The notes below the pieces were generated by a model. The model had not been told where the DNA came from and made no database searches. It saw only the letters and a program-made list of their open reading frames with translations. Source: Eledone cirrhosa (lineage: Eukaryota). From it: a stretch of 64,000 nt of DNA. The position numbers were made by a program, and so were the translations under genes. Below are positions 56,484 to 63,061 of this stretch, piece after piece (position 1 is the stretch's first letter; each line of letters begins with the position of its first letter). The DNA is taken from the NCBI GenBank assembly GCA_964016885.1, contig OZ024746.1, forward strand, positions 66,526,001 through 66,590,000, written 5' to 3'.

Positions 56484-56517
<34 letters not shown>

Positions 56518-56529
56518 CGTGCGCGTGTG

Positions 56530-56602
<73 letters not shown>

Positions 56603-56852
56603 GCACACACACACGCACACACAGATATATATATACATATGTATATATATATATATTATATATATATAAAGAATGAATAATAACAGGTAGACATCATATA
56701 AAGGTCATTTATTCCGAGAGCTTACAAATGTTTCAACAGTAGTTATACAGCCTAGTCATTATATGTGCAACTCTATCTGGTATAGTAATTAACCATTACT
56801 GCATTCAAGATAATCCTAACCATTTCTTGCATAACCCAATAATATATATATA

Positions 56853-57061
56853 TAACGGAAGAAATGTGGTTAGGAACCAGGTGGACCATAACACACCAAA
56901 GTACTCAATACTTAGGGTAGTAGAGTGGGTAATAGGAACGAGTACGAGTAGGACCCCGACGGCTGAGCTCAGGCCGTTTCGACGGCTAATTCTGGACTCA
57001 ATTCTAGTCCAGAATTAGCCGTCGGAACGGCTTGAGCTCTGCCGTCGGGGTCCTACTCGTT

Positions 57062-57065
<4 letters not shown>
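56853..57065 (-). mobile_element. Fold-back element family E, copy 2
   Basis: About 145-bp long arm, 7-nt loop, about 60-bp short inverted arm, (TA)n on both sides. Confidence 0.9.
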
Positions 57066-57567: not shown

Positions 57568-58112
<545 letters not shown>

Positions 58113-58464: not shown

Positions 58465-59159
58465 TTATTATTATTTTATTATTATTATTATTGTTGTTGT
58501 TAAATCAAACTTCAACGCAGCTGGAGTTTCACATTTTATTTCTTGTTTTCTCAAGTACTTTCTTGTTTCTTCTGTAATATTATTTGGTGCAATTGGCAGT
58601 TTGCCTTCGTTACAAATAATACATCAGTGGCTTACATGTATTTGAAGTGATACATTCTATTAAACATAATTCTATTTTACATAATTTATGTTTGGTAATG
58701 TTACTTTTACGTTGTAAGTTTATCAAGGAGAGATAACCTATAAAAGGGTATTGGTTAATAAAACTTAGATAATGGATCACCTTAACACAACTTGAATTAA
58801 ATTAAAGTAAATCGAACTAAATCAAATTGAATTAGTGTCAATGTATATTAAGATTTGATTTCAACTTTCGAATAAAACTATTTTCTTTTGAATTAACAAA
58901 CGACATGAAGTTTATAAAATGTACATATTGTTTTAAGTTTGTTTCCAAATATCCATTTAATACCATCACTCATGCATTATAGTCTCTAATCTGTTTATTG
59001 TGTTGTCGCGAGCCTTCTGAAAATGCATTTCCCTTCAGGATAATCCGTATTTAGGTGCAATTCTAGCATTTGAGATTCAGGATGTATGGACTAAAACTCT
59101 GAATTGATGATTATTCATAATATTAGCCTTCTGTGACCACTTCCATTAAATCAATGACA

Positions 59160-59425: not shown

Positions 59426-59612
59426 AGTTGAGTATATACCGAAACAATTGCAAATACGGAGGAGGGAAAAATATTGGTACTTATGTAGAAGTTTAACAAT
59501 GTAGGTAATTCAACCATTATACTATTCAACATAAAATATGCTTTAGAGAAAATCTAATAATAATAATTAAAATTATTAACAATTTTAAATAGACTTTTTC
59601 TTTTCACCTGCA

Positions 59613-59652
<40 letters not shown>

Positions 59653-59653
59653 A

Positions 59654-59707
<54 letters not shown>

Positions 59708-59794
59708 GTGTGTGTGTGTGTGTGTGTGCATGTATGTATATATATAACCATATATATATATATGAAGTTTAATCGTAGATCCCGAAGAATAACA

Positions 59795-59872: not shown

Positions 59873-60507
59873 GATACAAAACATAACGACGACATTTTGA
59901 AATTGGTTATTTTGGTAGATTTCTCTTAAAATACCAGCATTCTTTCACTCTCAATTTCTAAGGAAATATCTAACAAACCAGCTGAGGAGGGTGTATATTT
60001 ATTCTAATTGCGGCAAATGTTGAAATAGGCAAGATATGTTATAGTATTCATAGTTTTTCTCGATTTTCTGCATATTCTCAACAATACTGTAGGTATTCAA
60101 CAGAAATGTTGATTTAATAAATAGATAAAAGAGAAAATACTGTGATTCATACAATAGAATTTTTTTTTTTCCATATTGGATTATGACCGTTCTGTATTTT
60201 CGTAAACGTTTTGGCTCCTATTCAAATTGCTGTTATCACGAAGCTCAATTGATCTGAATAATATACATATATAAAATGAATACTGTGGTAATTTTACTTG
60301 AATGACTTCGCCATGCCTTTGTAGGTGACAAGAGGTGTTAAATGACATTTATTTCTGGTGTGTCTTCGGAAATGAAATATGGTTTAATAGCTTTATCCAT
60401 CCCATTAAATCTCTTTCGTCTAGCGATACCGATATGAATATTTCAGGAAACAACACGTTTGCTACGTTATATCAATAACATCCTCTCGTATTTCCTATTT
60501 GAAGACA

Positions 60508-60945
<438 letters not shown>

Positions 60946-61365
60946 TTGCGTTTGAATTTTGTGTTAAGTTATAAATGCATATTTTCATACATAGTATATG
61001 GGTATTGCTTTAATCTTTAATAGGTATTTGCGTTGTTATAGTCTTTAATATTATAAGTGTTATAGTGTCATTTTCGTATTAATTGCTTATCTTAAGTTGA
61101 GTTATTCCCACGTTAACTTAATGTGTAAAATACATACATAACACACTCTAAGTTTCTCAAATGTTACTGTTCATATATATACATATATTTAGGGTATTAA
61201 TAAATCTTAAAAGGCGGAAGGGTTATCAGACACACTTCTGGATGATGGTAGCACAGCCGCGTGCTAGACGTCAGTTGAAAGTTTGAGACCCTCGTTTCAT
61301 GTTAGATTTCATAGCCAAAAGATTGTGGTTGATGGTGTCCCCATTATGTTAATTTAATATTCATA

Positions 61366-61421
<56 letters not shown>

Positions 61422-61619
61422 TAGTATATAAATATGCATCCAAACAAACATACATGGAGACACACATACACACTTTATCTGTATATATATATAAATATAT
61501 GTATGTGTGTGTATGTATGTATTATAAAACCAGAGTTAGAAAGTTTAAGCAAAGACTCGCTGCTTTTACCCTAAACGGGATCTTCTCATAATAAATATTT
61601 GCTCTACGGGTTTATATAT

Positions 61620-61819
61620 NNNNNNNNNNNNNNNNNNNNNNNNNNNNNNNNNNNNNNNNNNNNNNNNNNNNNNNNNNNNNNNNNNNNNNNNNNNNNNNNN
61701 NNNNNNNNNNNNNNNNNNNNNNNNNNNNNNNNNNNNNNNNNNNNNNNNNNNNNNNNNNNNNNNNNNNNNNNNNNNNNNNNNNNNNNNNNNNNNNNNNNNN
61801 NNNNNNNNNNNNNNNNNNN
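61620..61819. other. Assembly gap (200 N)
   Basis: Run of N. Confidence 0.99.
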
Positions 61820-61837
61820 CACAACTAGCTAACAGAT

Positions 61838-62020
<183 letters not shown>

Positions 62021-62859: not shown

Positions 62860-63058
62860 GGAACAAGTAAGACCCCGACGGCTGAGCTCAAGCCGTTTTG
62901 ACGGCTAATTCTGGACTAACTAGTCCAGAATTAGCCGTCGAAACGGCTTGAGCTCAGCCGTCGGGGTTTTACTTGTTCCTATTACCCACTCTACTACCCT
63001 AAGTATAGAGTACTTTGGTGCGTTATGGTCCACCTGGTTCCTTACCACATTTCCTTCG

Positions 63059-63061
<3 letters not shown>
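62857..63061 (+). mobile_element. Fold-back element family E, copy 4 (opposite orientation)
   Basis: Short arm 62857-62917, 4-nt loop aact, long arm 62922-63061, (TA)n on both sides. Confidence 0.9.

What the first reader, a model, noticed from the sequence alone, without database searches (positions are those of the whole stretch)
62922..62966. Family E turns around inside a half hammerhead
Seen: the sense strand reads ..TAGCCGTC-GAAA-CGGC-TTGAGCTCA-GCCG-TC-GGGG. This is GAAA, a 5-bp stem III with a palindromic loop (TGAGCTCA), a GUC triplet and a GGGG candidate stem I strand, but the upstream CUGANGA is absent in all copies. Inference: the parent reads CCC(C)-CUGANGA-long stem II, and reverse transcription folds back at the stem II apex, so the ribozyme structure itself would set the palindrome centre.
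Basis: inference. Interest (0 to 1): 0.72.

Follow-up and report, generated by a model that had tools for sequence, protein, structure and literature searches.

The report
Mirror-image Penelope retroelement stub, half ribozyme
The palindrome is a stubby mirror-image insertion of the tail end of a very abundant Penelope-like jumping gene in a TA microsatellite, and its "half hammerhead" is the downstream half of a variant self-cutting-RNA motif that is complete only in longer copies; the turn-around point is likely set by where the copied RNA begins, so this is a new member of a known kind of element.

Summary
The sequence is as described. Family E is not a stand-alone palindrome. It is the 3' end of the pseudo-LTR of a Penelope-like retroelement (PLE): 3.54-kb unit, RT plus C-terminal GIY-YIG ORF, over 25,000 tail-bearing copies, inserted in (TA)n.

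Longer copies carry the missing upstream half: ACCCC-UUGA(G/U)AA-helix II (54 nt)-GAAA-helix III-GUC|GGGGU. No copy has CUGANGA. The core is the U3-A8 covariant already reported in PLE hammerheads. Rfam does not detect it. A hammerhead descriptor finds it once per unit and 0 times in 42.5 Mb of random sequence. In one subfamily the hammerhead fold is the minimum-energy fold.

The palindromes fit two inverted 5'-truncated cDNA copies rather than one fold-back. The arms are often unequal and centres differ between copies. One end is always short and the other carries an ~80-nt tail (0 of 69 tail/tail by script, one by eye; 0 of 30 short/short).

Of 161 arm ends, 101 fall in a 12-nt zone in the helix II loop, with a sharp wall beyond it. 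The wall coincides with a TATA-like box and an initiator-like TCATTY. I infer, untested, that the template RNA starts there.

Known kind of element; modest interest.

The parts
62861..62919 (-). Copy 3, inverted arm. The sense strand of the element is the window's minus strand. It ends outward in the 'short' 3' end (..GTTCC) at 62861, next to (TA)n. G12 of the GAAA box is mutated here.
62921..62979 (+). Helix II 3' strand TAGCCGTC 62932-62939; GAAA 62940-62943; helix III 62943-62961; C17 at 62962; predicted cut after 62962; helix I 3' strand GGGGT 62963-62967; short reverse-transcription start site after GTTCC at 62979.
62980..63060 (+). Copy 3, 81-nt 'tail'. This is the stretch between the short and the long cDNA start sites. 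In tandem or full-length copies it continues into the 5'UTR and ORF.
56854..57063 (+). Copy 1, in the opposite orientation to copy 3. Tail 56854-56933, antisense arm from 56934, centre near 57000, sense arm ending at 57063. Both arms end near m146.
57750..58109 (+). Copy 2. Shortened tail 57750-57822; antisense arm 57823-57883 plus an A-run; 144-nt filler 57892-58035; a T-run; sense arm 58053-58109.
58977..59120 (-). Source of the filler in copy 2. It is a unique sequence 0.9 kb away, copied 100% in inverted orientation.

Best explanation
Family E is the last stretch (pseudo-LTR end plus tail) of a very abundant Penelope-like retrotransposon, inserted in (TA)n as two inverted, 5'-truncated copies. 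These were likely made by priming DNA synthesis from both cut target strands at two different sites of one RNA.

Shown:
- The full unit is 3.54 kb, in the order pLTR, hammerhead-like motif, short start site, ~80-nt tail, long start site, ~93-nt 5'UTR, ORF.
- The ORF is over 700 aa. [quoted passage not shown]
- Long copies read ACCCC UUGA(G/U)AA G(A/C/U)U-CGGCUA [37 nt] UAGCCGUC GAAA CGGC UUGAGCUCA GC(C/U)G UC|GGGGU. This is a type I hammerhead layout with U3-A8 in place of C3-G8, a bulge in helix II and a large helix II loop.
- The short copies hold only what lies 3' of the helix II loop, hence the 'half hammerhead'.

Inferred:
- The EN cuts both strands of the TA repeat. One 3' end primes at the long site and the other at the short site. 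Both cDNAs run to the same RNA 5' end and their 3' ends are joined head to head, with 0-7 nt overlap or with filler.
[quoted passage not shown] A TATA-like TATTTAAATA lies 16-25 nt upstream, and an initiator-like TCA(+1)TTY has its A at m146, all inside the helix II loop.
- Transcripts that start there would carry only a dead half ribozyme, while read-through of tandem copies would carry a whole one.

Untested: whether the motif self-cleaves.
For: PLE identity:
- The L008 copy reads (TA)n, tail, inverted 827-nt copy, forward copy with the end of the ORF, 3'UTR, the same 827 nt in sense (99.2% identical), (TA)n.
- The L044 copy is an inverted 1.86-kb piece plus a forward 3.57-kb piece with a 710-aa frame.
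- Tandem arrays have a period of 3,542-3,543 bp and open frames.
- 7 of 12 loci sampled at the ORF start show pLTR end, tail, 5'UTR and ATG in one piece.
- RT and GIY-YIG motifs are at least 90% conserved among 35 homologues. 1 of 35 reaches Pfam RVT_1 (2e-7) and 1 of 35 reaches GIY-YIG (8e-4). Atlas neighbour clusters carry RVT_1 or GIY-YIG.
- The literature describes the same layout: an inverted 5'-truncated copy, a tail at one end and (TA)n targets (Craig 2021, passages). A PLE protein extends both target strands and starts at two internal sites whose spacing is the tail (Frangieh 2024, main text).

Hammerhead:
- 31 of 35 long copies have TTGANAA.
- The descriptor finds 1 hit per unit and 0 in 42.5 Mb of Markov random sequence.
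- For the L147-type RNA the unconstrained minimum-energy fold (-23.2 kcal/mol) is the three-way junction.
- The U3-A8 variant is known in PLEs.
- A sister PLE family in this genome has a canonical CUGAGGA...GAAA hammerhead 227 nt upstream of its ATG, against 191 nt here.

Twin copies:
- 71 of 90 sampled copies are palindromic. Arms are unequal by more than 3 nt in 34 of 71, with the left longer in 15 and the right longer in 19.
- 0 of 69 right arms carry a tail by script.
- Sampled from the short end, 26 of 30 partners are tailed and 0 of 30 are short.
- Genome counts are 7,811 tail junctions against 7,429 short ends.
- Both arms share the subfamily haplotype in 64 of 68 copies, against 0.32 expected if independent.

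Wall:
- 101 of 161 arm ends lie at m136-147 and only 15 of 161 lie beyond m147.
- All 3 window copies turn at about m143-146.
- Contig depth in 4 runs rises 10- to 25-fold between L126:1310-1330 and 1331-1372, and m146 is L126:1330.
- A- or T-runs sit at the ends in L047, L088, L113, L023 and both arms of window copy 2.
Against: - Rfam finds no hammerhead: in the window, in six long loci at E<=10, or in L126:1150-1520 at E<=10. It also misses the sister family's canonical motif at E<=0.1.
- The literal CUGANGA is absent in 0 of 35 long copies.
- 26 of 35 long copies have C or U at 10.2, which leaves a mismatch beside the bulge.
- In the L126-type the hammerhead fold is 2.4 kcal/mol above the minimum, and a rival hairpin AGCCGU-CGAA-ACGGCU competes with it.
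- There is no covariation beyond single-sided changes, and the copies are kin within one genome.
- Arm ends show no clear spike at the predicted cut site: 3 of 161 end at m100 and none at m101.
- The ORF itself gets no Pfam or PDB hit. The fold comparison could not be run.
- The transcription-start reading rests on motif resemblance (consensus recalled) and on the shape of the distribution. No RNA run was available.
- 7 of 12 ORF-bearing copies extend upstream of m146, so templates with a whole ribozyme also exist.
- The tool warns that contig depth cannot rank parts of a gene.
- One tail/tail exception (L046) was seen by eye.
Confidence: 0.75

Rival explanations
1. A single reverse transcript copies the RNA up to the apex of hammerhead stem II, folds back on itself and copies its own strand. 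The ribozyme structure would then set the palindrome centre.
For: 63% of arm ends (101 of 161) lie inside the helix II loop, next to a small distal hairpin. 37 of 71 palindromes have arms equal within 3 nt. Both arms share a haplotype in 64 of 68 copies.
Against: - A fold-back would copy the tail too, yet 0 of 69 right arms carry one.
- Arms are unequal in 34 of 71 copies, with either side the longer.
- Window copy 2 has separate A-runs on both arms and a 144-nt filler between them.
- The antisense cDNA up to m146 has no self-complementary 3' end to snap back on.
- In the sister family the arms pass through a 12-bp helix II and the whole ribozyme in at least 7 of 30 loci. That sample is biased to copies holding the 91-nt query.
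Confidence: 0.08
2. Twin priming as above, but the wall at m136-147 is where the reverse transcriptase stalls or falls off in helix II on long templates. It would not be the 5' end of the RNA.
For: The zone coincides with the 3' strand of a predicted distal hairpin of helix II. About 9% of arms (15 of 161) pass the wall, as would be expected of a leaky stop. Templates with sequence upstream of m146 exist.
Against: - The stronger proximal helix (m125-132) is passed by most arms.
- Stalls are expected before a stem, not spread across it up to the apex.
- The distal hairpin is weak in the L126-type, yet all three subfamilies share the wall.
- The sister family reads through a 12-bp helix II.
- A-runs at the ends suggest run-off.
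Confidence: 0.25
3. The hammerhead-like motif is a dead relic or a look-alike that does not cleave. The resemblance has no present function.
For: No Rfam hit. The core departs from the consensus. There is a mismatch and a bulge in helix II. No run-off spike appears at the cut site. PLE hammerheads are reported as poorly active in vitro, and cleavage as not needed for insertion.
Against: The two core changes are exactly the pair that covaries (3 and 8), and the same variant is reported in about 1,300 Schistosoma motifs. All other core letters, G10.1-C11.1, A15.1-U16.1 and C17 are kept in subfamilies 15% apart. The descriptor finds 0 hits in 42.5 Mb of random sequence. The motif sits where the sister family's canonical one sits.
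Confidence: 0.35
4. A miniature inverted-repeat or foldback DNA transposon with TA target-site duplication.
For: Perfect hairpin, flanked by TA, very many short copies.
Against: The ends are not symmetric, because an ~80-nt tail sits on one side only. The arms are colinear with the 3' end of an RT/GIY-YIG element. Arm length varies from about 6 nt (m89) to over 800 nt. No transposase-bearing parent was found.
Confidence: 0.01
5. Long inverted insertions were made first and later eroded from the centre by hairpin-triggered deletion. That would leave short palindromes with variable centres.
For: Centres show short overlaps and fillers typical of end joining. Long palindromes exist (L018, L008, L044).
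Against: Erosion would not stop at one 12-nt zone in three subfamilies, nor leave so few arms just beyond it (4 of 161 at m148-169). Solo copies end at the same place (L095, L113, L023).
Confidence: 0.04

Closest known systems
C-terminal-EN Penelope-like elements that target (TA)n, especially the Hydra clade (Craig et al. 2021, PMC8557442; passages read)
   Same: Single ORF with RT then GIY-YIG; pseudo-LTR from partial tandems; adjacent inverted 5'-truncated copy; a tail at one end only; insertion in (TA)n; a hammerhead in the pLTR; very high copy number in an aquatic invertebrate genome.
   Different: The unit is 3.54 kb, whereas Hydra elements are 'generally <3 kb'. The tail is ~80 nt rather than 30-40 nt. 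The hammerhead is not canonical. Clade placement was not tested by a tree here. The Hydra label comes from earlier notes of this scan.
PLE minimal hammerheads with U3-A8 core covariation (Cercyon of Schistosoma mansoni; Cervera and de la Pena 2014, PMC4209133; passages read)
   Same: Type I layout; short helix I (4-5 bp); long helix II with an unpaired base; G10.1-C11.1; palindromic loop 3; U3-A8 instead of C3-G8; location in the pLTR.
   Different: Here helix III is a full 5-bp stem with a 9-nt loop, so no dimer is needed on paper. Helix II carries a 37-nt loop, so the core halves are 54 nt apart, and that loop holds promoter-like motifs.
Poseidon PLE of Anolis carolinensis in vitro (Frangieh et al. 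2024, PMC11167929; main text read)
   Same: Both target strands are cut and extended. Reverse transcription starts at two internal sites downstream of the hammerhead cut site, and the stretch between them is the genomic tail. The target is AT-rich.
   Different: In Anolis the hammerhead overlaps the ORF start, and the starts lie 85-92 nt after the cut. Here the starts lie 17 and 98 nt after the predicted cut, and the ATG a further 93 nt on. A strict one-short/one-long pairing was not reported in the passages I read.
Animal non-LTR retrozymes (Li, Clavereau and Pollet 2026 preprint; abstract only)
   Same: Small hammerhead-bearing non-coding repeats related to PLE pLTRs.
   Different: Retrozymes are tandem units with whole ribozymes. 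Family E stubs are dead-on-arrival truncations with half a ribozyme.

Membership tests
Penelope-like element (PLE) | Reverse transcriptase domain | tested here: met
   FD..FYPSI and GLYRDDGL are at least 90% conserved in 35 homologues. 1 of 35 passes Pfam RVT_1 (31.4 bits against a cut-off of 29.6). The element's own ORF gets no Pfam hit. An AF2 model was made (pLDDT 86) but the fold search could not be run.
Penelope-like element (PLE) | GIY-YIG endonuclease fused to the RT (C-terminal here) | tested here: met
   The Y...YIGLT..FK.R...H block lies at residues ~583-615 of the 710-aa frame and is conserved in the family. 1 of 35 hits Pfam GIY-YIG at 8e-4. Atlas neighbour clusters carry GIY-YIG in 26-58% of members. 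The support is weak but consistent.
Penelope-like element (PLE) | Pseudo-LTR from partial or full tandem copies | tested here: met
   Tandem array with a period of 3,542-3,543 bp. L126 has a 5'-truncated upstream pLTR followed by the ORF.
Penelope-like element (PLE) | Adjacent inverted 5'-truncated copy, with a tail at one end only | tested here: met
   L008 and L044. 71 of 90 sampled copies are palindromic. 0 of 69 are tail/tail and 0 of 30 short/short, with one tail/tail exception seen by eye (L046).
Hammerhead ribozyme, type I | Conserved core CUGANGA ... GAAA ... UH | tested here: not met
   GAAA and GUC are present. The first box is UUGANAA in 31 of 35 long copies and CUGANGA in 0 of 35. 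The two departures are positions 3 and 8, which pair with each other. The U3-A8 variant is reported in PLEs.
Hammerhead ribozyme, type I | Three helices around the core in the right order and register | tested here: met
   Helix I is 5 bp. Helix II is 2 bp, a bulge, then 6 bp or more. Helix III is 5 bp. This is the minimum-energy fold for the L147-type and 2.4 kcal/mol above the minimum for the L126-type. The descriptor finds 0 hits in 42.5 Mb of random sequence.
Hammerhead ribozyme, type I | Match to curated covariance models (Rfam) | tested here: not met
   No hammerhead family at E<=10. At E<=0.1 the models also miss the sister family's canonical motif, so the test has low power here.
Hammerhead ribozyme, type I | Site-specific self-cleavage | not testable with these tools
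   No RNA reads were available. Arm-end counts give no clear run-off spike at the predicted site.
Hydra clade of PLEs | Placement in the RT/EN phylogeny; EN without CCHH; canonical hammerhead; usually <3 kb; (TA)n target | tested here: inconclusive
   (TA)n target: met. Length 3.54 kb and a non-canonical hammerhead: not met. No tree was built, because reference sequences could not be brought in. The label is a lead from earlier notes.
MITE / foldback DNA transposon | Symmetric terminal inverted repeats, target-site duplication, transposase-bearing parent | tested here: not met
   The ends are asymmetric and the parent is a retroelement.

The most novel reading that the evidence does not exclude
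The element starts its own transcript inside its ribozyme. A TATA-like box and an initiator sit in the enlarged helix II loop. Unit-length RNAs would therefore begin with a harmless half hammerhead, and only read-through RNAs of tandem copies would carry a whole, cleavable one. The tens of thousands of palindromic stubs would be run-off products of a two-headed enzyme that primes at a short and a long site a few dozen bases from that RNA 5' end. This would give a reason for both the odd helix II and the one-tail rule.
Probability: 0.35. Interest if true: 0.55.

Novelty: new member of a known kind. Interest (0 to 1): 0.3.

Why it matters
The finding explains a whole class of (TA)n-flanked palindromes in this genome as ordinary by-products of Penelope-like retrotransposition. 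It also shows that a hammerhead can be missed by Rfam when it has the U3-A8 core and a long helix II. Two points go beyond routine annotation. First, a near-strict pairing of one short and one tailed end, with both arms from the same subfamily, is what two priming events on one RNA by a paired enzyme would leave, as suggested by cell-free work on an Anolis element. Second, there is a sharp common limit of the arms inside the ribozyme. If that limit is a transcription start, it links promoter, ribozyme and reverse-transcription entry within about 150 bases. That would be a compact model for how these poorly understood elements handle their RNA.

Tried and rejected
- Rfam scans found only sub-threshold miRNA-like hits on microsatellites and hairpins and no hammerhead. 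The scans covered the window at gathering and at E<=10, six long loci, L126:1150-1520, and three loci of sister families.
- Pfam on the element's ORF pieces: 0 families.
- PDB sequence and profile searches: 0 hits.
- Structure comparison of the AF2 model: the machine was busy at every try, so it was not done.
- RNA evidence: no RNA holder was listed among 4 runs of one study, and all are kept as contigs. When laid they gave depth steps and loose ends but cannot show RNA starts.
- My first constrained fold used a mis-registered helix II without the bulge, so its -14.1 kcal/mol is invalid. It is replaced.
- My first descriptor was too strict and missed the real motif; it is replaced.
- The first haplotype comparison was off by one base; it is replaced.
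- Run-off at the predicted cleavage site: 3 left arms end at m100 (L037, L046, L075), one forward copy starts at GGGG (L127), and one arm is ambiguous at m99-105 (L038). This is not above the local background of about 0.7 ends per base.
- A 3' splice-site reading of UUUCAUUYAG|UCC was considered and dropped, because spliced templates would give deletions, not ends.
- An antisense polyadenylated RNA as the source of the A-runs was considered and dropped: there is no signal and it conflicts with the long copies.
- Earlier-findings look-ups by place and by sequence gave nothing.

Full report
**Observation.** It is the right arm of a near-perfect 119-nt palindrome, 62861-62979. The RNA fold is -121.7 kcal/mol, with z = -23.5 against shuffles. 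An 81-nt unique stretch follows, and (TA)n lies on both sides. These are the six arms of three copies, at 56854-57063, 57750-58109 and 62861-63060. In all three the unique stretch sits on one side only. Copy 3 is in the opposite orientation to copies 1 and 2. Rfam finds no hammerhead in the window, and neither does my own descriptor.

**What the family is.** The window lies in a 3.0-Gb genome. The 20-mer across the junction of unique stretch and arm has 12,711 + 12,583 exact matches there, and the reversed control has none.

Long, non-palindromic copies exist:
- One, extended, reads (TA)n, unique stretch, an 827-nt copy in antisense, a forward copy with the end of an ORF and a 3'UTR, the same 827 nt in sense (99.2% identical), then (TA)n.
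- Another is an inverted 1.86-kb piece next to a forward 3.57-kb piece with a 710-aa frame.
- Tandem arrays with a period of 3,542-3,543 bp and open frames also occur.

I sampled 12 loci at the ORF start:
- 7 show, in one piece, the Family E sense strand, the unique stretch, a ~93-nt leader and the ATG.
- 1 is the same with an internal deletion.
- 1 forward copy begins at GGGG.
- 3 are truncated in the leader.

So Family E is the 3' end of a pseudo-LTR. The unique stretch is the 'tail' known from Penelope-like elements (PLEs). It lies between a short end (after GGTTCC) and a long end (after CCTTCGTT) and continues into the leader in full copies.

The ORF has no Pfam or PDB match of its own. 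It does have 438 homologues at E<=1e-5. In an alignment of 35 of them, several motifs are at least 90% conserved:
- the RT motifs FD..FYPSI and GLYRDDGL;
- a CNC..CP linker;
- a C-terminal Y...YIGLT..FK.R...H block.

1 of 35 passes Pfam RVT_1 and 1 of 35 hits GIY-YIG. Atlas neighbours carry the same two families. An AF2 model is confident (pLDDT 86), but the fold search was never available.

The layout matches the literature:
- Pseudo-LTRs, an adjacent inverted 5'-truncated copy, a tail at one end and (TA)n targets (Craig et al. 2021, passages).
- A purified PLE protein that cuts and extends both target strands and starts at two internal RNA sites whose spacing is the tail (Frangieh et al. 2024, main text).

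Earlier notes of this scan on other pieces of this genome reach the same family-level reading. I treated them as leads only.

**The hammerhead.** In sense orientation the long copies read:

ACCCC UUGA(G/U)AA G(A/C/U)U CGGCUA [37 nt] UAGCCGUC GAAA CGGC UUGAGCUCA GC(C/U)G UC|GGGGU.

The box differs from the prediction:
- Among 35 distinct long copies in all loci fetched, 31 have TTGANAA, 3 have CTGANAA, 1 has TTAAAAA and none has CTGANGA.
- Positions 3 and 8, the two that differ, pair with each other in the active fold. Single C3 or G8 changes kill an Anolis PLE hammerhead and the double change partly rescues it.
- The same natural U3-A8 variant is described for Schistosoma PLEs, together with long helix II, an unpaired base in it, short helix I and palindromic loop 3 (Cervera and de la Pena 2014, passages).

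Helix II here is G-C, A-U (or a mismatch in 26 of 35 copies), a bulged U, then 6 bp. For the subfamily found in tandem arrays, the unconstrained minimum-energy fold of the 101-nt RNA is the hammerhead three-way junction (-23.2 kcal/mol). For another subfamily it lies 2.4 kcal/mol above a rival fold.

A standard descriptor that allows C3-G8 or U3-A8 finds the motif once per unit and nowhere in 42.5 Mb of first-order random sequence. The descriptor was written after seeing the motif.

A sister PLE family in the same genome has a canonical CUGAGGA...GAAA hammerhead 227 nt upstream of its ATG. The Family E motif sits 191 nt upstream of its own ATG.

Against a working ribozyme:
- Rfam reports nothing at E<=10, though at E<=0.1 it also misses the sister motif.
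- There is no two-sided covariation among these kin.
- Self-cleavage is untested.

**How the palindromes arise.** I took the first 90 genomic places of the junction 20-mer, unselected for shape. I aligned each arm to a long copy, in coordinates 'm' where:
- the arm starts at m84;
- the predicted cut lies at m101|102;
- GAAA is m121-124;
- the helix II strands are m125-132 and m170-178.

Results:
- 71 copies are palindromic and 19 are solo or long.
- Arms differ by more than 3 nt in 34 of 71, with the left longer in 15 and the right longer in 19.
- Centres differ from copy to copy, with 0-7 nt of overlap in 50 copies and 1-52 nt of filler in 17.
- By script, none of 69 right arms carries a tail. 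One tail/tail case, L046, is visible by eye.
- Sampled from the other side, 26 of 30 short ends have a tailed partner and none has a short partner. 4 have no partner end within 1.45 kb, and one of those has a tail-only partner.
- Genome-wide there are 7,811 tail junctions and 7,429 short ends for one subfamily.
- The two arms share the subfamily haplotype in 64 of 68 copies, where 0.32 would be expected by chance.

Window copy 2 has an A-run on each arm. Between them lies a 144-nt filler copied from 0.9 kb away.

These facts fit two cDNAs, one primed at the long site and one at the short site of the same RNA, joined by their 3' ends. They do not fit one cDNA folding back, which would duplicate the tail.

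**Where they turn.**
- Of 161 arm ends, 101 lie at m136-147, 4 at m148-169, 2 at m170-189 and 9 beyond.
- 45 are scattered at m84-135, with a shoulder of 14 at m125-132.
- The three window copies turn at about m143-146.
- Summed contig depth in four runs of one study rises 10- to 25-fold between L126:1310-1330 and 1331-1372, and m146 is L126:1330. The tool warns that such depth is rough.

- The stronger proximal helix is passed by most arms.
- The limit is shared by subfamilies whose distal hairpin differs.
- A-runs at the ends suggest run-off.
- In the sister family, arms run through a 12-bp helix II and the whole ribozyme in at least 7 of 30 loci, although that sample was biased to copies holding my 91-nt query.

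The sense strand just there reads TATTTAAATA (16-25 nt upstream) and TCA(+1)TTY, with the A at m146. These resemble a TATA box and an arthropod-type initiator. That consensus is recalled and comes from no call. A promoter and start site inside the pLTR, near the hammerhead, is known for Drosophila Penelope (Schostak et al. 2008, passages).

This step is inferred. No RNA data could be had, and stalling of the enzyme in helix II remains a live rival.

**Verdict.**
- The 'half hammerhead' is real in the sense that a complete, variant hammerhead layout exists in the parents.
- The literal CUGANGA prediction fails.
- The fold-back mechanism is not supported.
- The thing itself is a known kind: truncated mirror-image insertions of a PLE in a TA microsatellite.

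The possible start of transcription inside the ribozyme and the strict short/long pairing are the parts worth a bench test.

Noticed in passing
window 57892-58035 and 58977-59120: The centre of Family E copy 2 holds a 144-nt filler that is a 100% inverted copy of unique sequence 0.9 kb downstream. It is flanked by an A-run and a T-run. This looks like a templated insertion made while the two cDNA ends were joined.
   Followed up: partly
L145:1222-1281 (G000:C1, near 319428165-319428224): A sister PLE family (714-aa open frame) has a canonical type I hammerhead: helix I of 7 bp, CUGAGGA, a 12-bp helix II, GAAA, cut after UA. Rfam did not report it at E<=0.1.
   Followed up: partly
L126:1490-1515; L145:1436-1470; L137:1432-1470: The leaders of three PLE families share a short block (GCACYTTCC.GNCCC and GAGCACTYT) some 60-75 nt upstream of the ATG. 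It may be a conserved protein-binding or promoter element.
   Followed up: no
whole genome G000: A protein of this PLE clade gives 92,415 first-look candidates in the genome, many with open frames of 714-795 aa. The clade seems to make up a large share of this genome's repeats.
   Followed up: no
L037, L046, L075 (arm ends at m100); L127 (forward copy starts at GGGG): A few copies end or begin within a base or two of the predicted ribozyme cut site. This is not above background in my sample of 161 ends, but it is worth a genome-wide count.
   Followed up: partly
window 56500-56640, 59600-59770, 60500-60950, 61350-62020: Rfam 'miRNA' matches (mir-5014, mir-297, mir-466 and others, all below gathering scores) fall on (TA)n/(TG)n microsatellites and are artefacts of simple repeats. 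A run of N lies at about 61802-61819.
   Followed up: no
window 56934-56960: Copy 1 has a 6-nt duplication (GAGTAC GAGTAG) in its tail-side arm that the other arm lacks. This is a post-insertion or synthesis slip.
   Followed up: no
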